64,000 nt of DNA from Rhizophagus irregularis (Eukaryota): positions 186,001 through 250,000 of the forward strand of contig NC_089435.1 in assembly GCF_026210795.1 (NCBI RefSeq), in the 5' to 3' direction. Both the position numbers and the translations under genes were made by a program. The notes under the pieces are model-generated. The model did not search any database, was not told the DNA's origin, and saw nothing but the letters and a program-made list of their open reading frames with translations. The stretch's first letter is position 1, and each line of letters begins with the position of its first letter. Shown in pieces: positions 5,421-26,567 of the stretch.

Positions 5421-6722
5421 ATGTGGAATCTGCTTTTATTATTAATAACAATTGCTCTTTCTTCTTTGATACATCCCGTAAATTCAATATGTATGGATCA
5501 TGATCCAATAAATTTAAACAAGTTATTAATAGTAGATTGCGCACCTAAAGTACCTAAAGCACCTAAACAACAAAATAATAATAATAATAGTTTTCAATTA
5601 AATGATGAAAAATTATTTCAAATAAATTTTAATTGTCAAATAACAGATAATAATATGTGTAATAAAGTTGAAGACATATTTAATATGGCAGGGGATATTG
5701 TCACCTATGCTCTTGCGCTCAATACACCTATAATCGTTAATGCTAAATTTTACGTTATGGATCCAAAAGAATTAGGAGGGGCAACACCAACTAGATATAT
5801 TTCATTATTAGATGAAGATGATCAAGTAGAAAGATTTTATCCACAAGCATTGGTAAAACAATTACAATTAACATCACCTGTAACATTCTCATATTCAGAA
5901 TCAGATATAACAGCAGAATTTAATTCTTTGATAAATTGGCATTTTCCTGATGATAAAGGATCAATAAAAAAGGATCAATATGACATTTTATATACGATTC
6001 TACATGAAATTATTCATGGTTTAGGTTTTATATCAAGTTGGAGGGGTTTGGGTTTAGATACACCAGAAAAAGAATTAACTCCTTTTCTTGTAACTGGTTC
6101 AGATGATACTTCAATTACTTCATATGATATAGCAGAATCTCCATTTATTTTTCATGGATTTCGCGAAACTATATTTGATAAATTTATCATAATTAAGGAT
6201 AGTAATGGTATACAAACGAGATTATCATCATTCGCCAATGAATTAAATCAATTTAATACTAGTGCAAGTCAATTTATTGATTTTTATGATCAATTACAAA
6301 ATACTCCACAATATGAGGCAGCTAAAGATGTATTAATTTTTAGTACGACAAAAAATGATTTTATATTCATGCCTAAAGGTAGTAATAGTATTCCAGATGA
6401 TGGAATTATATTAGAAACGAAGATAAAACCTTATCAAGCGGGTTCTTCTATATCTCATGTAGATTCTATTATTTATAATATTGGTAATCCGGATTTTTTA
6501 ATGAGACGTGAAAGTATTTTAGGTGAATCACTTAATGATTTAGTTATTAAAAGTGGTAATATTACTGGAAGTGCTATCGGTCCAAAGTTACTTAATATCT
6601 TAAGTTCAATCGGATATAATTTAGCCGATAATCCGATTAAATCTTCTGCAACAAAACAATCGATAGTAGATTTTAATTTAATAATAACTTTATGCATAAT
6701 ATTTATAACATTGAACATCTAA
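5421..6722 (+). CDS. Secreted zinc metalloprotease-like paralog 1 (intronless, GPI-like C-terminal tail)
   Basis: 433 aa ORF with signal peptide, HEIIHGLGF (6003-6029), GSSISHVD...DFLM, GPKL...IGY, and hydrophobic C-terminus after SSA. Confidence 0.9.
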   Translation: MWNLLLLLITIALSSLIHPVNSICMDHDPINLNKLLIVDCAPKVPKAPKQQNNNNNSFQLNDEKLFQINFNCQITDNNMCNKVEDIFNMAGDIVTYALALNTPIIVNAKFYVMDPKELGGATPTRYISLLDEDDQVERFYPQALVKQLQLTSPVTFSYSESDITAEFNSLINWHFPDDKGSIKKDQYDILYTILHEIIHGLGFISSWRGLGLDTPEKELTPFLVTGSDDTSITSYDIAESPFIFHGFRETIFDKFIIIKDSNGIQTRLSSFANELNQFNTSASQFIDFYDQLQNTPQYEAAKDVLIFSTTKNDFIFMPKGSNSIPDDGIILETKIKPYQAGSSISHVDSIIYNIGNPDFLMRRESILGESLNDLVIKSGNITGSAIGPKLLNILSSIGYNLADNPIKSSATKQSIVDFNLIITLCIIFITLNI

Positions 6723-6906
6723 CGCTAATAAAATTTTATTATCAAATTTCATTATTATTATTATTTTTTTTTTAAAAAAAAAAAAATATGCAAAACTAAA
6801 TTGTTATTTCTAAATAAGGATTTGGTCGATTGTTACGTGGTATATAGACTTTTTACATGATTCGGTTATTATTTACAACCAAAATATGAAATTATTTTTG
6901 CTGTAC

Positions 6907-8428
6907 TTATAATAAATGAATTTTTATTAAACTCAATAAATTAATAATAAATATTACTTTGAAATTTGTTTTATAAGTTTTAATACCACCAGATTTTTCG
7001 TTACTTCCTTTACCATTATTTGTACTTGAGTCACCCGGTTCTATTGGTATACTCATAGTTGGATTAAAATCATTTCCATTTCCAATTATCGTGACACTTG
7101 GCTTATATGGGTTAGTATATTCTGGTGTGGAATATCTTATATGAATATTAAAAAAAAAAGAAAAAAAGATATTAGAAAAACGTGTAATAATTTTAATATC
7201 AACCCCCGTATTATCATGATTAAAATGCTTACCCCAATGTTTCCAATACTAGTTTTAGATTAGGTCCTATAATAGCATTATAACCTGCATTATTATTTCC
7301 ATTATGTGAAGTAATCAAACTATCTAAATTAGCTCCATGATCCGCTAAAAATTTCATAAGGAAATCACTCGTATTATTATATTTTTTAAAATCCACATGA
7401 CTTATGCTCGAACCTGTTTGATAAGGTTGTAATCTAGTCTCCAAAACAACTGATTCAATGGCTTTTGTAGTCCCTCTAGGTAAAAATCCCAATACATTCG
7501 GTGTAATAGAATAACTCATCATTTTTTCTGCTATTTTATATTGAGGTGAATTACGAAATTTTGTTACAAAATCTATATCATTTTCAAAAATTATACCAAC
7601 TTCTTTTTGAAATTTATTTATATCTCCTGTTAATGCTGATATTTTTTTTCCTGTTGGTATATGAATTAAATATCTATCAAATGCTGATTCTAAAAATCCA
7701 TTAAATTTAAATTGTTCTGATGGATCTTTACCAGTTATTAAAATTTCTGGTGTTAATGCTTTAGGTTGATCATTCATATAATCTTCCCATCCTGACGCAA
7801 ATCCTAATCCATGTACAATCTCATGTAAAACTACATATAAAAAATCCTGTTGATTACGTGTTATTGGAGGATCTCCTTCAAACCAAAAACTTGTTCCTCC
7901 AGCATTAAACAATGCCATTATATCGAAAGGTCCATATGAAGGATGTTGTTTAAATTGAAATTGTTTTACTAATGCTTGTGGATATAATCTAACTAATCCA
8001 TCATCATCTTGTAATGGAATCGTTCTAGCTGGTGTCGCTCCTCCTAATATTATAAGTCCATCTCCCTTTGGACATTCTCCTAACGAAGTACAAAAATCTA
8101 AGAAACTTGCATTTAATTGTATTGGTGTATTAATTAATAAAACAGATGATAATATTTTACCAGCTGTTTCAAATGCATTTTTCGCTTTATTACAAAGAAT
8201 ATCGTTTTTTATTCCACAATTGAATGTTAATACAATCATATTTTCATTATTTGGTTGTGTTAATTGTGATAATGAATCAAATTTAACGGAATTTTGTTGT
8301 AATGGGCATTCTACTGGTATCTTGTATGATTTTTTTAAAGGATTTGGGTAATCAAAACATTGTGATAATGTACCGAGAACATTTAAGGTTATTATTAATA
8401 AAATTATCATTAATAAACATATTTTCAT
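6907..8428 (-). CDS. Secreted zinc metalloprotease-like paralog 2 (2 exons, GPI-like tail)
   Basis: ATG at 8428 (MKICLL...). HEIVHGLGF, SSISHVD...DFLM. Intron after LG (GG|GTAAG); exon 2 (7135-6907) reads YSTPEYTNPYKP...KVIFIINLLSLIKIHLL*. Confidence 0.88.
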
Positions 8429-8910
8429 ATTTTTCAATGTCTGATTACTTTATGTATAAAAGGAAATGAGTGAATTATTATTATTATTTTTTTTTGTTTT
8501 TTTTTTAATGTCGAAGATAATGAAAGTATGGATAAATTGAAGAATTGAATAAAAGGAGTGAAAAGAATGAAAAAAAGAGAGGATGAAGAAGAAAAGGAAT
8601 GTCAGACAGTTAGACCAATAAAATATTAAATAATAATAATGTTAGTAACGATTCAATTAAACTTCCTTCTATTTGTAAAAGAAGTCGAGCTTGATTCGTG
8701 TTTGCTATGCATTTCATGGTCTTACAAAAAATAATAAAAATAATTAGATTATGAATTACCATTTCCATGCGTTTTTTTTTTTGATTGTTACCTATGTTAC
8801 CTTTGTGAAATCTTCAGAATTACACCAATTAATCTACAGAGCATTCTTGTGATCAATTAACATAATTATAACGATCAATTATGCGTCTCGATGATCCCTC
8901 TTGTATGGCA

Positions 8911-10259
8911 TCACACGTTTATCGAATATATTGGAGAAGGTTTATATGGAAGTGGATGATCTCTCGTAGCATAACTAATAAATAATAATAATAATAATAA
9001 TAATAAATTTTTTAACAAATTAAAGTTATATATGTACAATATATATGTACAAATCAATGTATTTACCCTAAAGTTTCCAAGATTAATTTTAATTGAGGAC
9101 CGATTGGACCACCAGAATAATCTCCACTTTTATCAAGTTGATATTGTATCGACCTTCCAGCAACAACACCAGGTCTCATTAAAAAATCTTTGGTTCTCGT
9201 GTATGTAGAAAATTGTAAATGATTTAAACTTGATCTTGAAAAAGGATTCAAACTTGTTTCTAACGTAATATTTTTTTTATCATGTGATTTAAATATAAGA
9301 GTACTCGGTTTACAAGCCAATTTATACAAATATTGAGCCACATAATATTCTGAAGATTCTTTAAAATAATTATATATTTCTTCATAAATTGAAAAGGTTT
9401 TTTTGGGAGAAAATTTTTGTAATTGAGGAGTGATTACATCTGACAGTCTCTCATTAGTAGATTTAAAATATATGTATTTATCAAAAACTTTTTCAATAAA
9501 TCCATTAAATATATAAAGATTTTCAATAGAATTATTATCATTTTTAATTATTAAATTATTTGATAAAATTTTTGGTGTTAAAGCTTTATGAATTTTATCA
9601 TTCCAGGCTGAAAGAAATCCTAATCCATGAATAAATTCATGAAGAACTACGTAAAGAAAATCAATTTGATTTTTTCCAATCGTTGAATTATCTTCAATAA
9701 ACCAATAATCTATTTTGGAATTAAATCTGGCTCTAATATCAAACTCTCCATATTCAGGATGTTGTTTGAAACGAAATTGTTTAACTAATGATTGTGGATA
9801 TAATCGATCAACTCCATCATCATCCCTTAATATTATTGATCTTGCAGGTCCCGCTGCTCCCATTATTCTACGAAATGGCGTATTTTTACATCGTTCTTTA
9901 TCCGTTTCACATAAATCTATGAATGTTGCATTCACATTTATTTTTGTATTAAGAATTAATGTCTCTGATATTATTTGTCCAGCTATTTCAAATGTTTTTT
10001 TGGCTTTATCACAAAGTACCAAATCCTTATTATCGCAATGAAATGTTATATTAAACATATTTTCATCATAATTTATAGGAGCTTTTTGAGAGGTTTGAGG
10101 GTCTTGTTGTGATGAATTGTTAGTATATGAACATGGTATTCGTTCTACGTGAAAATAATTAAACGGATCAGGATGTTCGTAACAAATTGCTTTTACAAAG
10201 TCAAATAAAATTATCACAAAAAATAGAAAGGAGAGATTGATATGTAAATGAAAGTTCAT
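8911..10259 (-). CDS. Secreted zinc metalloprotease-like paralog 3 (2 exons, no hydrophobic tail, likely soluble)
   Basis: Signal peptide, HEFIHGLGF, SSLNH...DFLM. Short exon 2 (8974-8911) reads YATRDHPLPYKPSPIYSINV*. Confidence 0.88.
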
Positions 10260-10792
10260 TATGTTTCATATTATCTCATATTATTACCAAAACCGAACCG
10301 AAGACTTTTATATTAAAAAGAAAAAAAAAGGCTGTGTTATTTAATAATAATAATCGGGATTTCCATTTGAGGCTAAACCAAAAATTCTGATTGGCTGAAA
10401 ATTTTATACTTTGTCATCAACCTGTCTCAAGCACATGGTCTAGACTTCAGGGGTGATAAAACAATATCAAAGTTTATTTTTTTTTATGCCTAATTGCCAA
10501 AATAAATAATTTTTCCGTTCTTTAATTACCCGGACATTCCTTCGAAATATTATTAATATAGCGGACTCTATATAGTTATTACATTTTAAGCAGCGATTAC
10601 GAGTTAAAAGTTATTTTGTTTTCCTTTTTTTTTTTTTAATCATTCTTAATCTTCTATCTCTTATGTAGAATCAGATAATCAATAATTTATCGAATAAATT
10701 TTAAGTTTGTTCTATAATAAATAATAGAAATTTAAAATAAATATAATAAACTGAATATCTTTCTTTAAAAAACCTCCGTAAAAATTGTAAAG

Positions 10793-11056
10793 TTAATACT
10801 CACATTGGTTACATTTTAATAAGTTAATTATCATGGATTTCTCTGAACAAGTTAACAATTTGTTATGTGAAATGACTCGACGCGCAGCTTCCCAATCATG
10901 TTGTTTATTACCATAACTTGCCACATCACAAGCCTCTCTAACAGCTAGTGCTACTATAAGAGTTCTATTTCTTTCCTCGTATGTAAAATTTTCTTCAATT
11001 TGGTTTTGATTATTATCACCATTATTATTTTGATTTGTTTCTTGATATAATTCCAT
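10793..11056 (-). CDS. Small 87-aa protein resembling the N-terminal helical module of Glomeromycota TKL kinases
   Basis: Clean ATG-TAA ORF with coding-like composition. The segment LIVALAVREA...KQHDWEAARRVISHNKLLTCSEKSMIINLL recalls the expanded kinase N-termini (recognised from memory, not searched). Confidence 0.55.
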   Translation of the reverse strand: MELYQETNQNNNGDNNQNQIEENFTYEERNRTLIVALAVREACDVASYGNKQHDWEAARRVISHNKLLTCSEKSMIINLLKCNQCEY

Positions 11057-11823
11057 TAACTAAAATAACTTTAATAAAAATGTTGAATTTTATTTATTGA
11101 TTTTTTTTTAAAAAAAAATTTCCACAAGGGGTATATACGGTAAAATATGTGAGGAAGAAAACGTATATTTATTATATTTCAATTTTAAGCATAATGGCGT
11201 TTCGATTATACTATTTCTAGATTTTTGTAATTGATATTGCAGGCTTGCAGCCAATCACATGAAAGTACAGAATTCTTGGTAAAGTTCTTTCTTAATGAAA
11301 TTTTAATTAAAATAAAGAAATAAAAGCATAAAGATTATCCATCTTTATTATTTATCAATTCGCCTACTCATTTATAAGAAAAAAAATGAATTATCACGTG
11401 ACCTGAACTCTAGTTAAAGAGGAGAGTTATACAGTGCTTTATTACAAATTGATAAATTGATTGTATTACCCCTGTTGTAAATTGACAATAATGGGAAGGA
11501 TTTTCGACATAAAAAATACTGCTTTCCCTTCGATCACAATCCTGTTAATGATGCACAATCTTCTTTAATAATTTAAATAATGTTCAATACGGATAAAAAC
11601 TATTTTCTAATGAGTCTGATGAAATCCGAATCAAACCGCAAGAACCCGGATCGAACATTAAATGTAATTTTGGAATAATAAAAAATTAATCTGTACCATG
11701 CATAGTAACCTCCCTTTACAAATCGTCATGACGTCATCTTTTATAAAAAATGATTAAATTTTTTACAAGGTAGAAATTGTGAATAAATTCAAGAATGCCA
11801 TTTTTTTATCGGTTATTAGACAT

Positions 11824-12065
11824 AGGGTCGCATTTCATTTCTCCCGACAATCATTTCACCGACAAGGGAATTTAGAATTAAGGTTAGGATTAGGTAAGGA
11901 AATTAGAGTTAGTATTAGGGTAGGATAAGGTTAGGGCTACCCTATAAAAAATTTTTCAGGATCACATGTCTGAGTTTCTTCGGAATAAAATGATCATTTA
12001 TCGGAGTTTTTTCCAGAATTTTTTTTTATAGGGATAAGTGGATGAAATAATAATTGTCGGTTGTC
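11824..12065. mobile_element. Degenerate MITE-like element with TTAGGG-like subterminal tract
   Basis: ccgacaa repeats on the left and ttgtcgg on the right; degenerate ttaggg tract at ~11876-11936; inner inverted repeat ccctataaaaaa/ttttttataggg (11940-12033). Confidence 0.35.
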
Positions 12066-12328
12066 ACGGACTCACGGGGTGGCACGTTGCGCCACTACAA
12101 TTTTTGGATATATGCCACAATAAGCTGGTGATACCCGAAATAAAAAAGATAGTCTTTAATCATTAATTCGGTTATACCATCTGGTATCCTTATACATCGA
12201 ACAATATAACTTTCAGAATATTTATATGTTTAAAGTATTTTATAATTTCCAACCTTTTTTTTTCCTAATTCCTTTCCTTCATCAATTAATTAATTACAAA
12301 TTTTTTCTTGAATATATCATATCGAAAA

Positions 12329-13817
12329 ATGATGAATTCATTAAAATTCATAATATCTTTGATTTTTTTTGTCGTAATAATAATTTTTCCTAATAAAACT
12401 ATTTCAATAAAATGTTTTAATCATCCAGATTTTTTCGAATTTTATAAAAGAAATCCTATAAATTATGAATTTATTAAAAAAAGATCATTAAAAACAAAAA
12501 GAACGTCATTTAATAATAATAATAATAATTTTCAAATAGAATTCACATGTGGAATTGATGATAAAATACTTTGTGATAAAGCTAGAAAAGGGTTTGAATC
12601 TGCTGGTCAGATAATTACTTCAACTATATCATTTAGGAACCCTGTAATAGTTAATGCATCATTTTATAATTTTTGTAAAACCGATAATCAATGTTCTTCT
12701 AGTAATGATAATAATATGGTAGCTGGTAAGTAAATTAAAAATAAAAAATAAAAATAAAAATAAAAACAAATACTAATAAATATTAATAACTATTGTAGGT
12801 GGAGCAAATCCAACAAAAACGATAGCATTAACAGATAATGATGGAATTGTAAGATATTACCCACAAGCTTTGGTTAAACAATTACCATTTGAACGTTATC
12901 CAGATTTTGAACCTTTTGATATCTCAGCAAAATTTAATTCTGAAGTAAATTATTGGTTTGAAGGAGATAAATTACCAATAAAATCTGATCAAACGGATTT
13001 CATATTAATAATTTTACATGAATTTATTCATGGATTAGGATTTGTTTCTAGTTGGAATGATTTTTTTAATTTTGCAAATCCACAAGGATTGACTCCAGTT
13101 CCAAGCGCCGATAATTTGAATTCGGGAATGTCATTTAACGGCTTCATTGAAAATATATTTGATAAATATTTGATATTTTTACCTTCAGGGGAATATGTAT
13201 CAAATGTTGCCGCTAAAATTAATACAATAGTAAATGAAAAAGGAAAATTTTACCAAACTCCAGAGAATTTTATTACGACATTTAAATCTTCTTCTCAATA
13301 TCAACAATCGGAAATGATGTTAAAAGCTGCTACAACATCTTTTTCTTTAGGATTTTTACCTAATAACACGAATAATTTAAGCGAAGCAATTATACTTGAG
13401 ACCACATTAAATCCTTTTAGAACGGGATCAAGTCTCGGTCATTTTGATCTTAAAACTTATATGAATACCTCCGATTTTTTGATGACTTATATACAAGATC
13501 CAGGAATGACACTTGGTGATTATATGTCAATTAGTGGTAATTATACTGGTGGTCCAATTGGTCCAAAATTAAGACAAATTTTGGGGACAATGGGGTAAAT
13601 ATACGATTATATTCGTTATTATATATATATTATCATTATTATTATCAACGTTAATACTTTTTAATATTGTAGATATGTTATAAAAGATGTTTATATAAGT
13701 CCATATACACCCAGTGTATCTCTCAATAAATTTTCAACGGCCGCAACAATAAGTAGTAATATTGGTTTTATGATATTTATTTTTACAACAATCATAATTT
13801 TTAATATTTTAATATAA
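12329..13817 (+). CDS. Secreted zinc metalloprotease-like paralog 4 (3 exons, GPI-like tail)
   Basis: Exons 12329-12725, 12799-13594 and 13673-13817 join in frame at canonical GT-AG sites. HEFIHGLGF, SSLGH...DFLM, Kex2-like KKR/KR sites in the pro-region. Confidence 0.88.
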
Positions 13818-14496
13818 TCATGTAAGGGCATATAATATAACTTAATTTAGTAATTAGTAATTTAATGAATAGAAGAAGGCTTTGTATAATCACATGATTA
13901 TTGGCATTTGTGTAATAACCTTAAACCCTTAATTTATACATATTGTCATTTACCAAATTTCCTTTTTATGACTAATAGAATTAATCACTGTATACCTTGT
14001 TCGAATAAAGAAGTTTAGACAGATATTTTATATATTATTTTTATATTACAAATCATTAAATGACAAAGTCATGGTTGTCAGCCTTTTTGAATTTAAAAAT
14101 CTACAAGCTTTCATATGAAACAGCTTGTGTACCAGATTTATAATTTTAGTTTTTTTACGTTCGGCCGATCTTATAATGTGACGATGTGATTTAAGACATA
14201 ATATTTTTAGTCACTTTTTTATTTTTTATTTTTTTTTTTAGCTTCTCTCTTAAAAAATGTCATTAAATTTTCTTTACTTTATACATTCTTTTCGCTTCTT
14301 TTAACCTATTTGCGTTCGTTGTTTAATTCTTTGTTATTCAGTTACTATTTTTAACATACTAGCGTTCGCTTATTTTTTTATATAAATATCAACATTTTCG
14401 AAATATTATCCTCTCTTTTTTTTAGAAAAAAAAAAAATATATAAAAATTAATTTTAGATTGAATTATTGATTAATTCAAACCATTACTTTTAAACA

Positions 14497-16332
14497 ATGA
14501 AGGCTTTAACATTAACATTGTTGTTGTTATTATCTGTCACATGTTTAACATTGATCAAAGAAATAACAGCTCAATGTTATGATTATACGAATGCATTGGA
14601 TATAAGTGCAAGAACTCCAATAACATGTAATATTGTTGATAATATTAAAGAACCACCGCCACCAATAGCTTCACCACAGCCACCATCGTCATCACCGCCA
14701 CCATCATCATCGCCATCACTATTACCAACAGCTTCAATATCGCCACCAGTTTCATCACCTTTACCATCAGCTTCAATATCACCACCACCAACTTCACCAC
14801 TACCATCAGCTTCTGCTAACTTAACAACAAATAATTTTATAATTAATTATAAATGTGAAATTGAGACAAATCAAGAATTATGTACAAAGGCACAAAAGTC
14901 TATAGAAAAAGTTTGCGAATTGTTAAAATCAAATCTAAATTTAATTACAAATATTAAAGTTGACGTTACTTTAAGAAATTTATGTCCTACAGATGCTAAA
15001 CAACCATGTAATGAGTTAGGAGGAGCAACATTTGCCAGAACCATGGAATTATTAGATGATGATAATGTTATTAGAGAATATCCAACAACACTTGTAAAAC
15101 AATTTGATTGTGAACGACATTATGAATTTGGTGATGTTGATATACGCGCTATATTTAATGGAGGGAATGTTACTTCTTTATGGTTTGAAGGAGATCCACA
15201 AATTACAAAAGATCAAAAAGATTTTAGAATAATAGTTTTAAAAGAATTTATTAAAGCGTTGGGTGTACAAACAAGTTTAATAGAACAACCAATTTTTTTA
15301 AACGTAACTCCAAAAGTTTTAACACCACAATTAACTTTAACAGATAATGGTGGTGGTTTAGAATTTATGGGATTTAAAGAATACGCTTTTGATAAATATT
15401 TGGTATTTCGTGGTAAACAAGTTCAACCGGTTAATGAAAATATTAAATCACTTAATGATTTTGCTAAAGTACCAGATAATAAATTTAATGATCAACAAGA
15501 ATTTGTAACAAAATTCGTTCAATCACAACAAATCGGTGTAGCTCAAAATATGGCGAATCTTTCTGTTACTCAATTTACTTTAGGTTTTCAGCCAAGAGGA
15601 TCAAAATCCGATGATGATATTATTATTCTAGAAACTCTTTTAAACCCTTACCAAAATGGTGTTAATATTAATAATTTTGATGCTAGCGTATATGCTGCAA
15701 CAGATGACTTTTTGATGATTTCACCTATCACAAGTGGCAAAACTCTTGAAGATTCTATGGGGAAATTTCCAAGTCCACTTGGTCCTAAATTAATCTCCTT
15801 GTTGGAAACTTTAGGGTAAGTTAATATTTATCAAAACTCTTGCACGACAAACATTAAATAAATTAAATAAACTTATTTTTTTTTTTTGTAATAAAAAAAA
15901 ATTAGATATCCTACCAAACGATTGCCAAATAATAATTTCAAAGTTTGTAACATTCCTTCGCCTCCTTCATCACCTTCTCCATCAAAGACTGTAACGACTG
16001 CCGTAACGACTTCTGTTACGACTCAAATTACAACAACAGTTCCTGTGGTTGTTACAACGACAATTCAACAAGATAATACTAGTGTTGTTTCAACTCAAAC
16101 TCAAAATGTTGTAACAAAAGTTGAGTCCGTGTCTCAAAGTGTTGTTACAACAGTCGTAGTTGTAGACGCTCCACAGTCACAGCCAATTCCTTCCCCGACA
16201 AATTCCGATGACCCTTTTCAAGGAGGAATTTATTCTAGTGGCTCTTCATATAAAAATCAAAATAATTTTAGTTCAATAATATTTATTATTCTAATTGTAT
16301 GTATAATAGGAAGTTTTCAAAGTATTATATAG
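14497..16332 (+). CDS. Catalytically dead metalloprotease paralog 5 with Pro/Ser-rich insert, Thr/Val/Ser-rich stalk and GPI-like tail
   Basis: Exons 14497-15815 and 15906-16332 are in frame. HExxH is replaced by KEFIKALGV (15241-15267) and SHxD by NNFD; DFLM and GPKL...LGY are retained. Confidence 0.88.
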
Positions 16333-16854
16333 ATCGATCATTTTATTAGATATTCATTTTACATTCTACTTACTTAATATGTATTAATTTTTAAAAAGAT
16401 ATTTAATTTTGGTAATTTTTAATCCGGAGATTGAATTTCAAAACCTTAGAAAATTCTTATAAAAATAAAGATGCAAATGTATTATAATACGTAACATGTG
16501 GCGGGACAATAATTTTTTAAAATTTCCTATTTTAATTCGTCACAATTATAAACAAAATTACAAAAAAATTACTGAATAAAGAAATATAATGAATTTACGC
16601 TAAACCACAACTATTCATGTCTTGTCTCCAAAAAAAGGTAGTTAAAAATTCATTCATTATGATATTTCTATAATAGATTGTATCATCAAAGATTTCAACT
16701 TCGAAATTCTATGAAAAGAATTTTTCGTATTTATGACATTAATTGACTTTTCATGTGATAAAATTCAAGTATAAAAACTCGAGAAAAAAATTCTCTTGAA
16801 ATTTTAATTTTGCTTTTTGAATTTTGAAATAATTTAAAGTATCTATTATTCAAA

Positions 16855-17459
16855 ATGAACAAAATTATTGGTATCACCCTTTTTCTTTTCTTCATTTTTT
16901 CATCTTATATCTCGGCAGTTCCAAATCCTATGATAAAACGTCAGGGGGACGGTAGCGATCCATTAAGTGGTTTCAAACCTTGTAATGGAACTACTTATCC
17001 AATTACTTTTACGAAGTTCAGTTTCGACCCAAATCCGATCGTAATAGGACAGACCTTAACTACGACAGTGGCCGGTACAAGCAATGAAGAAATAAAAGAA
17101 GGCGCAATTCAAACAACATCAGCATTTTCTAACGGACAATTAGTATTTAACCAACAAACTGATTATTGTAAAGTGTCAGTTGAACCAACCGGAGCAAAAT
17201 GTCCACTTCCACCTGGAGATTTTGATGCTTCTATAACATCCGTTCCCGCGGCTAGTTCCAATGATCCTTCAGGCACTACTTTATCATTTGATGTTGTATT
17301 TAAAAGTAAGAATAACTTATAAATTTATATTTATTCGATTTAAGATAAATGAATTGATTTTAATATATATATATATATTTTTCTTTAGTTATTAATCCTG
17401 ATAATACCGAATTGACATGCATGGAAGGACCATTTAGTATTACTTTCCCTCCAAAATAA
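16855..17459 (+). CDS. Secreted ML-domain (MD-2/NPC2-like) lipid-binding protein
   Basis: Signal peptide plus KR site; GFKPC...FDPNPIVIGQ...DYC...CPLPPG. Exon 2 (17389-17459) supplies the last Cys (LTCMEG). Confidence 0.85.
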
Positions 17460-18588
17460 TTGACGATATGATGTAATTTATAAACATTTTATTATCCGAT
17501 ATTTATAGAATAATTATCCGATGATCTAATATTATAAATATATATTATACACACAATTAATTTCTTTTTTTTCACTTTATTATTGTTATGAAATATGAGT
17601 AGCAAATTATTTTATGACAATGAAATTATTTTTAGTATTATAATTATTTTTAAATAAAGTTGTCTTCTAAAACTTATACATTTGTTATCTGATATACCCC
17701 ATATTTGAAAATTTCTTGGCGGATAGTAAGATATTCTCGAAATAAGAAAGACAAAAAAAAAAAAAAAAATATAAATATTTCCGACTGAAAATTTTCTTGG
17801 CACATAAAGAACGAAACAATCCAATCTATATATAGTTTAAATGTGATACAATAAACAATACAGTTAAGGGATATTAGAAACACGTATTAAAGTTTTGATT
17901 TTTAATATATGGGTTTTCAGGATGCATAATAATATATCTTGGCATACTTTTTACCACGTGATATGAAACAAATAATTTCTTTTTTCTCTGAATTTCTTAA
18001 ATTGATTAATTAATTTAACAAAAAAATCATAAAAGGGCAAGGCCCTCTCGTTGTTAATAATATTTTTATAAACAAAGTTTGTTGAAACGTATCCACATAT
18101 AGATTACAAGGGTAAATTAAAACTGCGGAATTTATTAGTATTACCAAAAAAGGATAAAAATAAATTAAAAAATTAATCACAAATCGAATTGTACTCGGTA
18201 AAACTCGTTTAGTGGAACAATACTGAAACATTTTTTTTTTTGAAAAAATAAATAAATAGATATTGATCCTAGTGTAGATATAATTTTTCTTTTTAATCAC
18301 TTTTTATTTATTTATATATTTTTTTTTTTCTTTATCTTTTATAAGATCGATTATATATATAAATAAATATATAAATACATATTCTTTTTTGTCAAAAATT
18401 TTTTTTTGGCAAATAACTCTCGTTTTTCTATTATTATAATTTCCTTGACGGAAATCATATATTAATAACAGAACTTCTGGTAAGCTCTGTTTCCCCTTTC
18501 CCATCCCTCCTCCTTTTAATTTTTTATATCATTTTAATACCACTTAAAGCATAAAACACCAGAACAAAGCAGCAACAAAATAAAAATC

Positions 18589-20010
18589 ATGAAACCATCA
18601 TCATTTTCATTTATTCTTTCACTCTTGCTATTTATTAGCATCGAATCTATGATTCAAGTAAATGCTATGTGTTGGGAACATAGCAATCCACTTAAACCAT
18701 GGGAGAAAACGAAGTCAACATTTTGTGGTACGCAAGATAAGCCAAAAAACAAATTAACAATCGATAAAGGAAATTCGCTAGCTTCCTTTTTAGCACCAGC
18801 TGATGCATTTCAATTTGTTTTCTCTTGTGGAGTTCCAGATCAAGTTTTATGTAGTAAAGCAGAAAATTCATTTAAAGAAGCAGGATTAATTATAGCAAAT
18901 TTAGTTAATTTCACTACACCTTTAAGAGTTAATGCTACTTTTACAGATTTTTGTCGAGACCTTGGTGAATGTGATGGTAAAATTCTTGGAGCAGCAAGTG
19001 CAGCGAGAACAATTCCTTTACAAGATGATGATAATAAAATTAGACAATATCCACAAGCATTAGCAAAACAATTTTTATTACAACCAGAACCTCAATGGGG
19101 ACCTTTTGATATTCAAGCTTTTTTTAACGCTGAAGCTGATTTGTTTTTTGATGGTGATAATACACCAATTACACCTACTCAATTTGATTTTCGTTATATT
19201 ATTTTACATGAACTTATTCATGGTCTTGGTTTTGCTTCCGGTTGGAATAGTTATTTCAGTAGTGATAATGGTAATAATGCTGTTGCTTTGACTCCTGATC
19301 CAGGTTTTCTCGAGCAATTAACAGGTTTAAATGATCCTGTGACTTTTACTGGATTTGAAGAAACTGCATTTGATAAATATATGGTAAATGCAAAAATAAA
19401 AACTCAATCTCCGAAAAGAATGACTGATTATGCGGATAAAATAAATAGTTTTGCTAAAATTGGTACTAAATTCCCAAGTGTACAGGCTTTATTAACATCA
19501 TTTCAAAGATCTCAATCATTTTTAACTTCTAATGATTTAATCATTGATAGTCAAACTCCAAAAACTTTTGCTTTTCAACCTAAAAGTGCTAAAACCACAG
19601 ATGATTTAATTTTTTTGGAAACGAATATAAATCCTTTCCAACAAGGATCATCTATTTCTCACGTAGATATTGTATCTTTTAATAATAATAGTGATTTCTT
19701 GGAAGTTTTTAATGCTAAACGTGGTCAAAACTTGGATCAAATTCTTGCTAGTGTTGGTGGAACTTACCCTATTGGTCCAAAATTACAATCCGTTTTAGAA
19801 ACTTTAGGGTATACTACGGCAAACAATCCAAATCCATATAAACCAAGTTTACCTAATAGTCCAAAATTGAATGCTGCTCCCCCACCTCCATTACCTGTCG
19901 CTAATCAAAGTGGTAAAAATAAAATGTCAACTTCCACCGCTACATCTTTAAAATTTAGATTTAATATTTTACCTGTATTTATAATTGTAGTCGTTGTTTT
20001 ATTATTATAG
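18589..20010 (+). CDS. Secreted zinc metalloprotease-like paralog 6 (intronless, Pro-rich linker, GPI-like tail)
   Basis: 473 aa ORF. HELIHGLGF and GSSISHVD are present, but DFLE replaces DFLM. Hydrophobic C-terminus. Confidence 0.9.
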   Translation: MKPSSFSFILSLLLFISIESMIQVNAMCWEHSNPLKPWEKTKSTFCGTQDKPKNKLTIDKGNSLASFLAPADAFQFVFSCGVPDQVLCSKAENSFKEAGLIIANLVNFTTPLRVNATFTDFCRDLGECDGKILGAASAARTIPLQDDDNKIRQYPQALAKQFLLQPEPQWGPFDIQAFFNAEADLFFDGDNTPITPTQFDFRYIILHELIHGLGFASGWNSYFSSDNGNNAVALTPDPGFLEQLTGLNDPVTFTGFEETAFDKYMVNAKIKTQSPKRMTDYADKINSFAKIGTKFPSVQALLTSFQRSQSFLTSNDLIIDSQTPKTFAFQPKSAKTTDDLIFLETNINPFQQGSSISHVDIVSFNNNSDFLEVFNAKRGQNLDQILASVGGTYPIGPKLQSVLETLGYTTANNPNPYKPSLPNSPKLNAAPPPPLPVANQSGKNKMSTSTATSLKFRFNILPVFIIVVVVLLL

Positions 20011-20226
20011 ATTTTTTGGGGGCGTGTAAAATTTAATATGTTAATTTAAAGTGTGGAAAAAAAAAAATTATAAATAAATAAAAAAAAAAATGTGTTTAAT
20101 TTACAGAATAAATTATTTTTGATTAGATTATATTTATTATTATTTATTTATTTATTTTTAAAAAAGAGATACATTTGTATATATTATGTAATAAAAAAAA
20201 TTAATTCTTATTTGAAAATAATTAAA

Positions 20227-20308
20227 CGACAACAGCAGGGTTTGAACCTGCGCTCCCATAGGGAATCAGATTTCAAGTCTGACGCCTTAACCACTCGGCC
20301 ATGTTGTC
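20227..20308 (-). tRNA. tRNA-Ser (anticodon TGA)
   Basis: Minus strand GACAACA TGGCCGAGTGGTTAAGGCG TCAGA-CTTGAAA-TCTGA, long variable arm, GCAGG-TTCAAAC-CCTGC, TGTTGTC G; 82 nt class II cloverleaf. Confidence 0.95.
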
Positions 20309-20871
20309 TAATAAACCTGATTATTTATCAAAGTAAAATTATTTAAATAATAAATTTTATTTTTAATAAAAATTTCCCGAAATTAATTTGATAACATGGG
20401 CATTATCTTTTATCAATATTCGACATCAATTTTGTTTCCCTATCTACAATAAAGTCATTTTTATGATAAGGGAAAAATGTTCTTATTTTTATTTAATTAA
20501 TCTATTTATTAAGTGACTCTAACTTTGATGTCTCGATCATTCAATAGCTTTTCATCTATTTAAAAATAAATTATTATTGATTATTTTAGAATTTAAATTA
20601 CATGTTATATTAATCAATGTACATACAATATTATATATATTATAAAAAGACAATTCTCATGTTATTAACATTTTTTTTTATGAAAAAAAAAAAAATTTCT
20701 GGAATACAATAGGTAACTATCATGTAAATGATAGATATATTACTTTGAAGAAAGAAATAAATAGACTAACTCTAGCAAGAAAATATTTATAAATTAACGA
20801 ATTCATATTCCTTCGTTATCGATTAAATGTGTTTCCCATCTCCTCCCATTTTTCCACCATTTCACCATTTA

Positions 20872-21600
20872 TCATTCTTGTTTTTCTTCTTCTTGTTGTT
20901 GTTGTTGTTGATCATCTCTCTCCATTTCCATATACTCTTGTTGCATAAAATGATGTTGTTGACCAAGTGTAGGATAACCAACACTTATTTCAACTGTTGA
21001 AGGAGTAGATGTTCCATACATAGTTTGAGAACGTTGAGGAGGACGATGTGTACCCGCAGCCGGAGTAAATAAATCTTCATGTTCTTCTTTTTCATCTTCT
21101 GGTCCAATTATATCATCATCATGTTGAAATTTTTTAGAACTTCTTTCTCTTTCCCTTTCCCTTGAATCTCTCTTACTTTTTCTAAGTGAAGTGCGAGATC
21201 CACTTAATTGTAGAGGTTTTAAGCCACGAGATGATTCAGCTAATCTTTTACGACGATTGCAAAAAAATAACGCAACAACTAAACAACAAACAACTACAAT
21301 AGCAACTACAACTACAATTGCTATAGCTAATGGTGAACTTAATTTATTAGCTGTTGTTTTTTCACTAGAATTTGTTGTATCTAAATTACTCAGTGTGGAA
21401 TTTAGAAATAATGGTGGTACTGGTTCTCCAGACCAGTCACACTTTTCACTTATACATTTTCCATTTGAAATACAATCACTATCAATTGTACAATAAAATG
21501 TACATTTATTATCTAAACATATTTGACCAGCGATTGAATAATTACAATCTTGGTTTGCTTGACAAGCTTGATCTGCATTAACGGGGGAAGGTTCAGTCAT
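20872..21600 (-). CDS. Single-pass membrane protein with N-terminal tandem 4-Cys modules and charged cytoplasmic tail
   Basis: 242 aa ORF: two Cx5C-xn-Cx4C repeats, S/T linker, hydrophobic segment followed by RRKR, then R/E- and Q-rich tail. No N-terminal signal peptide. Confidence 0.82.
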   Translation of the reverse strand: MTEPSPVNADQACQANQDCNYSIAGQICLDNKCTFYCTIDSDCISNGKCISEKCDWSGEPVPPLFLNSTLSNLDTTNSSEKTTANKLSSPLAIAIVVVVAIVVVCCLVVALFFCNRRKRLAESSRGLKPLQLSGSRTSLRKSKRDSRERERERSSKKFQHDDDIIGPEDEKEEHEDLFTPAAGTHRPPQRSQTMYGTSTPSTVEISVGYPTLGQQHHFMQQEYMEMERDDQQQQQQEEEKQE

Positions 21601-22685
21601 GGAAGCGAAGAATTTTTGTTTTATAAAACAACATTTAATTATCCAAAACTACTTCTCTAAATGAAAGAATAAAGATCGTCTATTTTTTTTTCTTATCGGA
21701 GAAATTTGTTTTTTTTTAAAAAAAAAATTTAAATAGAAAGACAAATTTAACTAAGTTCAAAATCTTTTAAAAATTTTTTTCTTTTAGGCTTGAAATTTTT
21801 TTTTTTTTTTTTTTTTTTTTCCTTTGTCTGTTATTTTTACTTAATAAGCCCCATGGTTCTTCCGGAAGATCAGGTGCATGATGGGCTTAGATACTTGAGT
21901 AAAATATCATTATTTTCCGTAAGTCAAAAAAACGAATTTAGTATTACTTCGTTTTATATAAAGATAAATAAATAAACAAATAAATGTGGCTGTGAAGTTT
22001 AAACAGCCACAATGAAGCAATGCCGGAATTATCTTTATTTGGAGATATTTTAAGCCTTACGTGATCATAAATACGTGATCATATATACGTAAATCATTCA
22101 CATTTTTCCGAATTTTTAAAGCCGCAAACCGAAATTTCAAATCAAAATCCTTGTGTAACTTGTAATCTTTGCCTTAAAACCTTGACTAACCTATATATAG
22201 TATGTATAAATATAGGAAGATTAAAAAATTAATTCACGTAGTTAGGTCAAGTTTTCATCTATTTTGTTTTTCTGGTTTTTTTTTCTGGTTTTTTTTTCCT
22301 AGCTGGATTTGGTAAATTTTTGAATTGAACGTAAATTGAAATTGCGTAATCTTAAAATTTAAGGTTATCAATATATAGGTTACACCGCATTGAAAATGTT
22401 TAATCATTAAAAGAAATATCATTATTTACAAAATAAAATACATAACTCATATAGAAATGTAATAAAGCAAATAAAATTATCAATGAACAATAAACACGAA
22501 TAAAACAAAATAATTATTATGCTATTATTTATAATAAAAAAAAACCAAATCAAGAAAAAGGTTATTCGCAAAAAAAAATCTCCCTGCCGTCTTTAATATT
22601 GTCAATACTCGAATCTCATACAACCAATAAAAAAAAAAAAGAACTCAGGATTCAGGATTCAGTAATAAGATTTAAATTAATATCA

Positions 22686-24344
22686 TTAAATAAATGATGA
22701 CGTAAACTTACGATTAAGTAAATAATTAGAGAAATACCACATTATAGGAACTAATGGTACAATAAAATACCAAATTTGAGTCAATTCAAATACGCTATTT
22801 AATTTCATTGGTACAGTTCTTGGCGATTCATATCCTGTAAATCGTCCTTTTGTGTAAAATTCTTCCATCAACGCATCCTTCTCTATCCATCTTTGTCTTA
22901 GCCATTCTGTAAATTTATCCTCATCTTCGGGCATTTCTGAAATTGCATATTTTCGAATATGTAAATGTATATTACGTGGATATTGTCCTTCAAAATAAAT
23001 TTTTCTTAATGTATATATTTCTTCTGGAAATTGTCCTCTCCTCACTCCTTCTATCCCTATAGTTAAATCATATACATAATCAACGGATTTATGTAATGAT
23101 CCAGCACAAAAATGCAATCCTGTTGATCGTGGCAATAATACATGTTCATGATCCACCTAAAAAAGATGATCGAGAATAATTTAATCTAAATATATATATA
23201 TATACATTAAATTTATATTATCGACATACATACCAATCCAACTTTATCTGCATATTTTTTTGACGTTATACGCGTCACATCAGATACTACTGTTCCCTCT
23301 GGAAATATAAGCAACCATAAAGGTTCTTTGGAAGTAGCTAGAGTCGATAATGTCTTTGAAAACGGGCCTTTATCAGTTGCCCAATTTCGTTTCAAAAAAA
23401 TGTATTGGAAAAATTGCATACCCTAATTAAATAAGATATTATATTCGGTTCCGGTTTAGAAAATATAAACATATATATATTAAAATTTTTGTGTATATTA
23501 TTGTATACAACATATCATAAATAAATATTCAAAGAATATCAAATTAGTCAAAATTCTTACCCTATAAGTAATAAAAAAATGAATTAGTAATTGGATATAC
23601 AATCAATAATGCCAAAAGAACTGACAAAAACTTACCATCCAAATATCGGTAACCATTTTAGGGAATCTTTTAATATAATCTTAATTGCACCATGAGCATT
23701 AGCTAAATACGTAAAGCACCTAATATAGTAAAAATTGATAAAACACGCGCTTTGGGTCGAACCTTATGATAAATCAGTCGTTAATTCAACTGTATTGTGA
23801 GAAATAAGCTTACCACACGTATAACCAATCAGCGTATATCTATAAATGAGTTTATTAGTCTCAATTTAAATGACCACCTTGTATATTACTAATAGTATTT
23901 CTTACTTGATGATTTGCTATTAATATAAGTCTTTCGGGCATATCCAGTTCTACTTTAGCTCCGTTCCAACTTTGCTTTAAAACACCTTTGGCAGATTTAT
24001 CTACTGTGATAACAAAGTTGCTAGGAGCAAAGAACTGATTGATGGCAACCAATAAAATACCAAAACATCTTTGGGTATGTTTAATATAGCTTTGATAATA
24101 GGAATGCGAGAATGGCCAAAGCAAAAGACTAAGAAATTGAGAAAAGTTGAGCGCAGCTGACTGGCCAGCTAGAAAAAACGCGATTTGTATTATATTCAGA
24201 CTCAGGAGTAAGATAACGATGGTAGACTAAAACATAACGAGTAAGAGAAAGATTTTGATACTTACCAAAGAACACAACGAAAACAGCTGTGCGCACGAGC
24301 CACTGTACAAGATTTTGCGACTGCGGTTCCCCTAAAGCAGGCAT
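22686..24344 (-). CDS. PlsC-family lysophospholipid acyltransferase (LCLAT1/Cst26-like), multi-exon
   Basis: Motifs NHQ|IYADW, LKDSLKWLPIFGWGMQFF, FLKRNW, FPEGT, LLPRSTG, VYDLTI. ATG at 24344. The frame requires a 1-nt exon at 23561. Confidence 0.9.
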
Positions 24345-25139
24345 TTTTATAATCTCCAAAACAATAAGACGACCGTTAAACAAAAACAAGGTAAAAAAAT
24401 CTTTAGGGGAATAGAAAAAGAAAATTCTACTCTTACATAGGGCAAATACTGTGAAAAAAAGGAGGATGCATTATTTATATTTATAGTCATCAATTTTTTT
24501 AAGGTTTCTTAACAATAATAAGAGTGACACTTGTTAAACTCATGACCCCGTGAGGACGCATGGACGCAGGTCATGCGGATTGTTTACGTTATATAGAAAA
24601 TTGGCACTTCACTGTCACACTTTAATCCTAAATAAACCTGCAAATATATCAACAAATGATGATTATACACGATTTACACTTTCATTTTTGCACCCGATTC
24701 CCATAGCCATTTGAGGCTGTATTTGGTGTATCTATGGTCCATTTTGCTGCGGTTTACATAAAATTTTATAGGTTTAACTCTGATATGGTATTACCAAATG
24801 TACGTTGACGGGAGATACCAAAATTAACCCTCTGGACATTATGAATGATGGAATGAATTATCCAGTAAAAGATTTTTTTTATTCATGACTCATTAGTTTT
24901 ATATACATAAAAAATAATAAAAAAGCATAGAAACCTGGAATATAGCAAGATTTGATTTTGATTTTAACTTAACCAAGTTAAAACATTCGGTATGAATATA
25001 ATTAGAAAATCATTACTAATTTAGAAATTATATAAAGTATTAAGTTTATTACGCCCCATCATATTCTTCCGAAGAATGTATAAATAAGTGATCATCTTTT
25101 CTTTTTTTTTCCTTTTTTTGTTTTGATTTATTATCTAAA

Positions 25140-26567
25140 ATGAACATTCATTTACTGCTAATAATATTAATAACGTTCTTACTAATTTTTATAAATGATG
25201 TTTCCTCCGATCATGCATTATGTTGGGATTTGATTCCAGAACCGAATAATTTGTCACGTAAAATTCAGAGACCATGTCCAATGGTTAAAAATAGGAAAAG
25301 AGCAGCATCAACAGCAGCACCGGCAAATAATTCGGATATGTTTACCGTATCATTTACTTGTTCGGTTGAAAATGAAAACCCAGAATTATGTCGAAAAGTT
25401 AAGAATGCGTTTTATACAGCTGGACAAATTATTTCTTCCAGCATAAAACTTAATACACCATTGATAGTTAATGCTTCATTGGTAAATTTTTGTACAACAA
25501 GAGGTATATGCCTAGATGGACCAACTGGTCGTTTAACTTTAGGTGGTGCTGGACCTTCAAGACTTATTCCTATTGAAAAAGATCAACGAGTATATCCTCA
25601 ATCCATCTTAAAACAATTAAACAAAGAAAATCACCCAGAATATTCTCCATATGATATTAATGCTCTATTTAATAGTGAAGGAAATTATTGGTTTGAAGAA
25701 GATGGTCCAATAAAGCTAAATCAATCTGATTTTTTATTTGTAATTTTACATGAATTAATTCATGGATTAGGGTTTTGCAGTGGTTGGGATGATCATAGTG
25801 ATATGTTAGGCATACAGAATATAATAACTCCAACACCTCTTTTTTTAACAACCATTACAGGACAGGTCATTTTTGGTGGATTTAGAGAGTTCATATTTGA
25901 TAAATTTATGGTATTATTATCTGATGGCACTCGCATTTCCAATCTTACTGAGGAGTTGAATAAATTCTCTGGTGTTGGAACTACTCATAATTCAATGGAT
26001 GATTTTTTAAATTACTTTATGAATACTTTTCCTTCATCTCCTGAATACCAAATTGTTCAAAAAATGATGAATATATCTACTACACCTAAATCTCTGGGGA
26101 TTTTACCATTAAATAAAACTGATATTAAAGATGCTTTTATTTTAGAAACTTCACTTTCACCTTTTTTGCCCAAGTCAAGTATCAGCCATTGTGATTATAT
26201 AACTTATACCAAATCTTCTGATTTCTTAATGAGATATTTACAAGATCCTGGTATTTCTTTAAAAAGATCTATTCGTTTAGGTGGAAATTATGTAAATGGT
26301 CCTATTGGGCCTAAACTAGCTGAAACATTATCTTTAATAGGGTAAGTATTTGTTTAAATTATTATAAAAGAATATTTAATGTTTTTTAAAAATAAATATT
26401 TTTTTTTTAGATATCAAATTCAAAATTTACCAAATACATTTAAACCAAATCCTAATGAAATAGTAGTAGATGATGAAATTAATATTGCATCATCTTTAAA
26501 AGCTTTTAACTTAAATTATTTAATTATAAAATTTTTATTTTTTTATTATATAATGATGGACTTTTAA
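25140..26567 (+). CDS. Secreted zinc metalloprotease-like paralog 7 (2 exons, GPI-like tail)
   Basis: Exons 25140-26341 and 26411-26567. Signal peptide, RKR site, HELIHGLGF, SSISHCD...DFLM. Confidence 0.9.

What the first reader, a model, noticed from the sequence alone, without database searches (positions are those of the whole stretch)
5421..26567. Tandem array of seven leishmanolysin/GP63-like secreted and GPI-tailed metalloprotease genes
Seen: seven diverged, intact paralogs on both strands within ~21 kb. They share a signal peptide, conserved Cys, YPQALVKQ, HExxHGLGF, a far-downstream His (SH/NH/GH), DFLM about 11-12 residues later, and GPKL..LGY. Known: HExxH plus a distal third His plus a Met-turn is the layout of M8 leishmanolysin, which Leishmania encodes as tandem arrays of GPI-anchored surface proteases; some bacterial secreted metalloproteases share similar motifs. 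Inference: this is a diversified surface-protease arsenal of a probable obligate symbiotic fungus (anchored, soluble and dead members), possibly processing host apoplastic defence proteins or microbiome peptides.
Basis: partly seen in the sequence, partly recalled or inferred. Interest (0 to 1): 0.85.

Follow-up and report, generated by a model that had tools for sequence, protein, structure and literature searches.

The report
Unannotated fungal leishmanolysin-like surface proteases
A mycorrhizal fungus carries a cluster of seven old, unannotated genes predicted to encode surface or secreted zinc proteases shaped like the core of the Leishmania protease GP63, one of them catalytically dead yet conserved; the family also occurs in many non-symbiotic fungi, so it likely does general protein cutting at the hyphal surface rather than being a symbiosis-only weapon.

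Summary
Observation confirmed: seven intact paralogs (418-581 aa, 31-42% identical) in Rhizophagus irregularis. The leishmanolysin link holds at fold level: an AlphaFold model of G2 (pLDDT 93) matches 1LML best (Z 12.3, 188 residues), and a profile of bacterial relatives aligns the distal His and Met to those of 1LML. But these are not GP63/M8 members by Pfam; they lack a match to the C-terminal part of 1LML, and their nearest non-fungal kin are secreted bacterial HExxHGLGF proteases (hhalign E 8e-42). The family is unannotated ('sequence orphan') and spans chytrids, gut anaerobes, zygomycetes, Glomeromycota and Saitoella (538 clusters at E<=1e-30), so it is not symbiosis-specific. The paralogs are ancient and stable: a dead copy (G5, KExxK) and a Met-turn Met-to-Glu copy (G6) are conserved across Glomeraceae; six of seven have GPI-like tails. 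G7 is transcribed and spliced. Most likely: GPI-anchored or secreted metzincin endopeptidases doing general surface proteolysis; host-defence cleavage is possible but has no support here. No activity was tested. The scan's earlier notes held nothing on this family. Verdict: new variant of a known kind, interest 0.55.

The parts
5421..6722 (+). G1: single-exon paralog, 433 aa; HEIIH, distal His346, Met361; short stalk and hydrophobic GPI-like tail
   Evidence: identical to database protein P0187
6907..8428 (-). G2: exons 8428-7233 and 7135-6907, 474 aa; HEIVH, His344, Met358; S/T/P-rich stalk, hydrophobic tail with a late Lys/His (weaker GPI signal). Folded model used for structure searches
   Evidence: identical to P0177; model
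8911..10259 (-). G3: exons 10259-9067 and 8974-8911, 418 aa; HEFIH, His347 (NH), Met361; no hydrophobic tail, predicted soluble. Some public annotations fuse it to upstream or downstream frames
   Evidence: identical to P0197; alternative models; end of gene not checked by RNA
12329..13817 (+). G4: three exons (12329-12725, 12799-13594, 13673-13817), 445 aa; HEFIH, His347 (GH), Met361; three KR sites before the catalytic domain; GPI-like tail
   Evidence: ortholog 77% core identity in Funneliformis caledonium
14497..16332 (+). G5: exons 14497-15815 and 15906-16332, 581 aa; conserved pseudo-peptidase (KEFIK, distal His to Asn, Met kept); Pro/Ser linker, long Thr/Val/Ser stalk, GPI-like tail
   Evidence: core 90.5% identical to R. 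clarus and 71.9% to F. mosseae dead orthologs
16855..17459 (+). Interleaved gene: secreted ML-domain (MD-2-like lipid-binding) protein, one predicted intron 17306-17388; next to the G5 and G6 orthologs in R. clarus by locus tag too
   Evidence: PF02221 E 2e-8
18589..20010 (+). G6: single-exon paralog, 473 aa; HELIH and His358 intact but Met-turn Met replaced by Glu372; Pro-rich stalk and GPI-like tail
   Evidence: identical to P0172; Glu shared by 8 of 8 rows of its clade with the column filled
20227..20308 (-). Interleaved tRNA-Ser(TGA)
20872..21600 (-). Interleaved gene: Cys-rich extracellular N-terminus, one transmembrane segment, charged tail; no family over cut-off
22686..24345 (-). Interleaved multi-exon acyltransferase gene (5' end approximate, read by eye)
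   Evidence: PF16076 E 2e-17 on the last exon
25140..26567 (+). G7: exons 25140-26341 and 26411-26567, 452 aa; HELIH, His350, Met364; KR site before the catalytic domain; hydrophobic tail ending in Asp-Phe (weaker GPI signal); transcribed and spliced
   Evidence: RNA reads and junction

Best explanation
The seven genes are an ancient cluster of an unannotated fungal family predicted to be secreted, mostly GPI-anchored zinc endopeptidases with a leishmanolysin-like metzincin core, which likely cut proteins at the hyphal surface (wall-protein processing and local peptide release) rather than acting as symbiosis-specific effectors. Steps: a signal peptide sends the protein to the ER (inferred from hydrophobicity); a short N-terminal Cys-paired segment is followed by a flexible linker that in some members carries a KR/RR site and would be cut by Kex2 (inferred); two His of HExxH and a His 136-147 residues later would bind zinc above a Met-turn, with the Glu as general base (residue correspondence to 1LML shown by profile alignment through bacterial relatives, geometry not measured); a Ser/Thr/Pro stalk and hydrophobic tail would anchor six members by GPI, G3 would be released (inferred). 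G1-G4 and G7 are predicted active, G6 is predicted altered (Met to Glu), G5 cannot bind zinc in the usual way and likely acts as a non-catalytic binder, decoy or regulator. Odds: metzincin-type metallopeptidase family about 0.9; general surface role rather than host-directed role about 0.6.
For: Fold: G2 model pLDDT 93.2, pTM 0.92; best of 48,161 chains is 1lml_A, Z 12.3, rmsd 3.8, 188 aligned, next proMMP-9 Z 10.0, rmsd 3.3, 146 aligned. Bacterial relative's model: 1lml_A Z 15.0, rmsd 3.5, 193 aligned and Foldseek top hit E 1.9e-5. Bacterial profile's top PDB sequence hit is 1LML (E 7e-4), pairing HExxHGLGF with HEMAHALGF and GSSxSH..LM with GSAGSH..DELM; fungal and bacterial profiles align over 250 columns, probability 100, E 8e-42, with those motifs in register. 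Site conservation: His-Glu-His-His-Met intact in 148 of 163 domain rows with all five columns filled (of 193 rows) and 94 of 103 (of 119 rows). Hydrophobic C-tails in 68 of 97 and 65 of 88 complete-looking homologs. KR/RR in 27 of 83 N-terminal linkers against 4% of same-length core windows. Breadth: named members in Glomeromycota, Mucorales, Calcarisporiella, Basidiobolus, Conidiobolus, Blastocladiomycota, chytrids, Monoblepharidomycota, Anaeromyces and Saitoella. Stability: orthologs across genera, other R. irregularis records 97-100% identical. G7 expressed.
Against: No activity, substrate or localisation was tested. Foldseek found no match at E<=0.001 for the fungal model and ranked MMPs first, with 1LML not among the rows shown; the fungal profile itself does not hit 1LML by sequence. 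GPI and signal calls are hydropathy heuristics; G2 and G7 tails carry late charged residues. The KR/RR background is not composition-matched and the set holds near-copies. Glomeromycota records hold many copies (7 here plus others elsewhere; at least 8 records for Diversispora eburnea) while most Mucorales species appear once in the lists, which fits an added symbiotic role; copy numbers per genome were not counted. Expression by tissue or stage is unknown.
Confidence: 0.55

Rival explanations
1. Host-directed arsenal: in the mycorrhizal fungus the paralogs cut plant apoplastic defence proteins at the arbuscule or intraradical hyphae, the dead G5 acting as a decoy for plant protease inhibitors.
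For: Many copies in Glomeromycota records; signal peptides and tails; a conserved dead paralog with a long stalk; leishmanolysin-like fold.
Against: Family predates mycorrhiza and occurs in gut anaerobes, chytrids and saprotrophs; free-living Calcarisporiella has at least 5 members; paralogs are stable orthologs, 72-93% core identity across species for G2-G6, not a fast-turnover array; G7 reads are few (45 and 44 of 11.05 million records, tissue unknown).
Confidence: 0.25
2. Nutritional role: the proteases release peptides and amino acids from soil or necromass protein along extraradical hyphae, giving the fungus its own route to organic nitrogen, or digest proteins of hyphosphere bacteria.
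For: Nearest non-fungal kin are secreted bacterial proteins of environmental taxa, many with T9SS-type tails; wide presence in saprotrophs; Glomeromycotina secretomes are reported to have the lowest digestive-enzyme share (11%) in a MEROPS-based survey (PMC9391592, passages) that could have missed this family.
Against: GPI-like anchoring of six of seven suits contact-range cutting more than bulk digestion; a conserved dead member is not explained by digestion; no expression data for nitrogen limitation.
Confidence: 0.15
3. The proteins keep a metzincin fold but are not peptidases (for example metal-binding wall adhesins or hydrolases of another bond).
For: Independent dead or altered lineages exist (KExxK clade, Met-to-Glu clade, HQxxH and Met-to-Leu members).
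Against: About nine in ten rows keep the full catalytic set including the general-base Glu; the top structural matches are peptidases.
Confidence: 0.05

Closest known systems
Leishmanolysin/GP63 (MEROPS M8, Pfam PF01457, PDB 1LML)
   Same: Best solved fold for both the fungal and the bacterial model; HExxHxLGF, a distal third His in a GSxxSH motif and a Met after it, in register; signal peptide plus GPI-like tail; multi-copy cluster (GP63 anchoring and arrays recalled, not tested).
   Different: No PF01457 hit for the seven; only chain residues about 100-370 align, the rest of the 465-residue chain does not; second-to-third His spacing 136-147 against 66, His-to-Met 14-15 against 11; about three Cys pairs near the N-terminus against nine conserved pairs in leishmanolysin/invadolysin (PMC6899020, passages); paralogs are 31-42% identical and old.
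Bacterial secreted HExxHGLGF / GSSxSH proteins (unnamed family, many with T9SS type A tails; Bacteroidota, Chloroflexota, Poribacteria, Cyanobacteriota, Nitrospirota and others)
   Different: Shorter insert (His-His spacing 85-116 in the 51 of 80 matched by pattern), no N-terminal Cys pairs, bacterial sorting tails instead of GPI-like tails; fungal and bacterial rows fall on opposite sides of one long branch.
NCBIfam NF038122 (metallo_LGF) metalloprotease domain
   Same: Six of seven paralogs hit it at E 2e-10 to 7e-8 around HExxHxLGF; 60 of 60 bacterial relatives hit it.
   Different: Scores 33-46 bits against a cut-off of 80; profile match to five over-cut-off members covers only the N-terminal half, E 4.5e-12; the bacterial relatives bridge to it over the full domain, E 1.9e-19.
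Matrixins (M10 MMPs, karilysin) and snapalysin
   Same: Metzincin upper subdomain; Z 8-10; Foldseek rows at E 0.02-0.1.
   Different: Those enzymes have the third His six residues after HExxH (HExxHxxGxxH, established knowledge); here that position is not His and the third His is far downstream.
Yapsins (GPI-anchored aspartic proteases of yeasts; recalled, no call)
   Same: Functional analogy only: multi-copy GPI-anchored surface proteases that process wall proteins.
   Different: Unrelated fold and chemistry.

Membership tests
Metzincin clan MA(M) | HExxH zinc motif on the active-site helix | tested here: met
   6 of 7 paralogs; G5 has KExxK; motif lies in helix 174-185 of the G2 model
Metzincin clan MA(M) | Third His ligand and Met-turn downstream | tested here: met
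   By sequence correspondence: invariant His and near-invariant Met map through the bacterial profile onto the His and Met motifs of 1LML. G6 has Glu for Met, G5 Asn for His
Metzincin clan MA(M) | Three His and the Met meet at one zinc site in 3D | not testable with these tools
   Model coordinates are not released to scripts; the structural alignment range to 1LML (100-366) spans these residues but residue pairs are not printed
Metzincin clan MA(M) | Chelator-sensitive endopeptidase activity | not testable with these tools
   Bench assay needed
M8 leishmanolysin (PF01457) | Score over the Pfam cut-off | tested here: not met
   None of the seven hits PF01457 at E<=1 (G4 as two exon pieces); not among the 25 of 41 families shown for 81 members; bacterial relatives 7 of 60, best E 0.005
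M8 leishmanolysin (PF01457) | Long insert between HExxH and third His (no HExxHxxGxxH) | tested here: met
   Spacing 136-147 here, 66 in 1LML
M8 leishmanolysin (PF01457) | Leishmanolysin N-terminal and central domain fold | tested here: met
   Z 12.3, rmsd 3.8, 188 aligned, top of 48,161; a moderate match, 2.3 Z above MMP-9
M8 leishmanolysin (PF01457) | Cys-rich C-terminal domain and nine conserved disulfide pairs | tested here: not met
   After the catalytic domain the proteins have only a 0-120 residue low-complexity stalk and tail; 5-11 Cys in all, mostly N-terminal; nine pairs per PMC6899020 (passages)
M8 leishmanolysin (PF01457) | Propeptide with cysteine switch | tested here: inconclusive
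   A 40-residue Cys-paired segment and a low-confidence linker precede the domain; KR/RR in 27 of 83 linkers; no unpaired conserved Cys seen; blocking of the site not testable
M8 leishmanolysin (PF01457) | GPI anchor | tested here: inconclusive
   Hydrophobic tail with candidate omega sites in 6 of 7 by heuristic only; no GPI predictor on hand
M8 leishmanolysin (MEROPS) | Assignment in MEROPS | not testable with these tools
   MEROPS is not held
NF038122 metallo_LGF | Score over 80 bits | tested here: not met
   33-46 bits for six paralogs, no hit for G5

The most novel reading that the evidence does not exclude
Early fungi took a leishmanolysin-like metzincin from bacteria and swapped its bacterial sorting tail for a GPI anchor; in arbuscular mycorrhizal fungi it grew into the hidden surface proteolytic system that lets them win organic nitrogen or disarm host defence proteins on their own, with a conserved dead copy as decoy and a 'Glu-turn' copy with changed zinc chemistry.
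Probability: 0.15. Interest if true: 0.85.

Novelty: new variant of a known kind. Interest (0 to 1): 0.55.

Why it matters
A family of hundreds of sequence clusters across early-diverging fungi has no Pfam family and is labelled 'sequence orphan', so Pfam-based and probably MEROPS-based secretome counts miss it. Giving it a fold and an active site adds at least five predicted surface proteases to a fungus whose lineage is reported as poorest in secreted digestive enzymes. That makes two standing questions testable: whether mycorrhizal fungi can cut extracellular protein themselves, and whether they trim host apoplast proteins. For protease specialists it links leishmanolysin to a large bacterial family, and offers a natural Met-turn-to-Glu variant and a conserved pseudo-peptidase.

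Tried and rejected
Whole-genome count: no genome is held for this window, so copy number outside the window rests on database records. Sequence searches of PDB with G6 (0 hits) and the fungal profile (2 intersectin hits at E>0.1, chance) gave nothing. Foldseek of the fungal model: no match at E<=0.001 in PDB or viral structures. Attempts to collect bacterial PF01457 members for a direct profile comparison found 0 of 5 and 0 of 81 genomes, so that comparison was not made. Atlas: top clusters are unnamed fungal and bacterial ones; PF01457 clusters scored 0.86 and 0.77, leads only. RNA: for 12000-20500 no RNA holder was listed; expression of G1-G6 stays unchecked. Horizontal transfer from bacteria: not shown; the tree puts fungi and bacteria on two sides of one long branch with a long-branch warning, FastTree only, no independent root; six R. 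irregularis/R. clarus accessions were not found in the two supplements of PMC11291939. Recent gene conversion: no near-identical blocks, paralog DNA 60-83% alike. A recalled idea that fission yeast SPBPB7E8.01 belongs to the family could not be tested: PMC3805531 does not mention it, PMC6895273 calls it an uncharacterized 569-aa protein, and no sequence was available; it is not evidence. Earlier scan notes: none by sequence; two by words concern other genomes and did not bear. Complex prediction was not used: no binding is claimed.
Full report
Observation. The window is 27% G+C fungal DNA without N. ORF lists show seven related frames between 5421 and 26567. Splicing at GT..AG gives complete proteins G1-G7 of 433, 474, 418, 445, 581, 473 and 452 aa; four equal database proteins exactly, and the best homolog of G6 is a Rhizophagus irregularis protein at 99%. 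Pairwise identity is 31-42%; no eighth copy lies in the window. Five genes share an intron inside the last Gly of the GPxL..LGY motif; G1 and G6 have none. The G7 intron is confirmed in raw polyA reads of both raw runs laid (2 and 3 junction reads; 45 and 44 reads laid of 11.05 million each) and in one of two contig sets. Four unrelated genes sit inside the cluster.

Anatomy. Each protein has a hydrophobic N-terminus, a Cys-x(14-19)-Cys segment (one Cys only in G4), a variable linker, a domain of about 330 residues and a tail. G1-G4 and G7 have HExxHGLGF, a His 136-147 residues after the second His and a Met 14-15 further. G6 has Glu in place of that Met. G5 has KEFIK and Asn for the third His. 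Six have a hydrophobic C-terminus with candidate omega sites; G3 has none. These targeting calls are hydropathy heuristics. KR/RR occurs in 27 of 83 linkers that my pattern caught, against 4% of same-length core windows (background not composition-matched, near-copies included); the linker is the only low-confidence part of the G2 model (residues 29-37).

Family. Pfam gives nothing over cut-off for the seven or for 81 aligned members. UniRef calls them 'Sequence orphan'. Searches found 90 and 110 homologs and, among 1.84 billion cluster representatives, 538 at E<=1e-30, 3,839 at 1e-10 and 6,213 at 1e-3 (unnamed, so the weaker ones may be bacterial). Of 20 of the 112 new representatives looked up, 16 carried a fungal species name, and no named one was non-fungal: Calcarisporiella, Pilobolus, Mycotypha, Hesseltinella, Apophysomyces, Saitoella, Nowakowskiella, Cladochytrium, Hyaloraphidium, Gonapodya, Anaeromyces, Acaulospora, Diversispora; add Basidiobolus, Conidiobolus, Paraphysoderma, Sorochytrium, Jimgerdemannia and many Glomeromycota. 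The five catalytic columns read His-Glu-His-His-Met in 148 of 163 filled rows (30 partial rows set aside) and 94 of 103 (16 set aside).

Bacterial kin. A profile of 60 of the 80 aligns to the fungal profile at probability 100, E 8e-42, with YP-AL, HExxHGLGF, GSSxSH, LM and GP in register. Both are only distantly related to NF038122.

Fold. The G2 domain folds with pLDDT 93.2. The full structural search ranks leishmanolysin first (Z 12.3, rmsd 3.8, 188 aligned, chain 100-366), then MMPs (Z 10.0-8.3); Foldseek gave only weak MMP rows. A bacterial relative (pLDDT 92.0) gives 1LML Z 15.0, rmsd 3.5, 193 aligned, and Foldseek E 1.9e-5. Its profile's best PDB sequence hit is 1LML (E 7e-4), pairing the distal His and Met motifs. 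So the family works like the catalytic core of M8. It is not filed as M8: the Pfam score, the C-terminal Cys-rich domain and the nine Cys pairs (PMC6899020, passages) are not met. Zinc-site geometry could not be measured.

History. A FastTree tree of 138 rows (103 fungal-type rows that I picked from about 170 proteins plus the seven models, 35 bacterial; P0160 dropped by a pattern miss) places each paralog with orthologs from other genera: G1, G2, G4, G5 and G6 with Funneliformis, and G2, G6 and G7 in starred clades that include Diversisporales. Core identity to R. clarus is 84.4% (G2), 88.4% (G6) and 90.5% (dead G5); to Funneliformis 72% (G2), 77% (G4), 71% (G6), 72% (G5), 54-56% (G1). The dead copy is thus as conserved as the active ones. 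Met-to-Glu is shared by Rhizophagus, Glomus and Funneliformis members of the G6 clade, not by its Acaulospora sisters. Consecutive locus tags and shared contig lengths suggest the cluster is kept in R. clarus and F. caledonium (not checked on DNA). Fungi and bacteria form two sides of one long branch, so transfer from bacteria is neither shown nor excluded.

Mechanism. Shown: seven intact genes, conserved catalytic residues, leishmanolysin as nearest fold, stable orthology, G7 expression. Inferred: secretion, GPI anchoring, Kex2 processing of some members, zinc binding, proteolysis. For the role, breadth across lifestyles, at least five copies in a free-living fungus and slow change favour general surface proteolysis (0.55 overall). 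A host-directed role (0.25) and a nutritional one (0.15) remain open and are not exclusive across paralogs.

Literature. Searches of the held library (listings and abstract starts seen) found no paper describing this family; six locus tags and NF038122 gave 0 papers. Passages read: bioRxiv 10.1101/2022.12.16.520752 (section 5 and term search; 753 secreted R. irregularis models, no mention of leishmanolysin or peptidase in the main text; its datasets, which I could not see, may list G3 or relatives), PMC8778642 and PMC9391592 (no leishmanolysin), PMC11291939 (main-text passages and two supplements searched for six accessions). Subscription papers, MEROPS and InterPro were not searchable, so prior annotation as M8-like cannot be excluded.

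Verdict. Real feature, well read by the first stage at the level of fold. It is a new fungal variant of the leishmanolysin-like metzincins, broad in early-diverging fungi, with a conserved pseudo-enzyme and a Met-turn variant. The symbiosis-weapon reading is unproven. Interest 0.55.

Noticed in passing
window 10830-11060 (-): A short frame upstream of G3 that several public annotations splice onto G3 in place of its signal peptide (P0110, P0196, P0201); other records fuse G3 with G2 (P0007, P0205, P0206) or, in R. clarus, the G5 ortholog with the ML gene (P0219). Likely annotation fusions that hide these proteins from secretome lists.
   Followed up: partly
window 16855-17459 (+): Secreted ML-domain lipid-binding protein with a KR site, between G5 and G6; the same order is suggested by R. 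clarus locus tags.
   Followed up: partly
window 41415-41729 (+): Small frame with a hydrophobic N-terminus and a Cys-rich C-terminus (defensin-like spacing by eye); no Pfam hit at E<=0.01.
   Followed up: partly
window 53190-55303 (-): Multi-exon glycoside hydrolase family 5 gene with a GH5 C-terminal domain (PF00150, PF18564), with a signal-like N-terminus.
   Followed up: partly
window 62619-64000 (-): Alpha/beta hydrolase (PF07859, E 1e-29), cut by the window end.
   Followed up: partly
window 28765-31605 (+) and 43018-49381 (-): Fragmented frames that look like decayed transposon-derived or repeat-family genes; no Pfam hit for the pieces scanned.
   Followed up: no
window 51181-51501 (+): Weak NYN ribonuclease-domain fragment (E 0.001, under cut-off).
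   Followed up: no
L001-L080 (match at about 3000-3900 in each): The bacterial HExxHGLGF/GSSxSH family itself has no Pfam family over cut-off in these scans and folds like leishmanolysin; it is a large unnamed bacterial metzincin group worth its own description.
   Followed up: partly
P0081, P0296, P0303 and P0279, P0301, P0322, P0330 (homologs): Other fungal lineages carry independent active-site changes (HQxxH; Met-turn Leu), so pseudo-enzymes arose more than once in the family.
   Followed up: no
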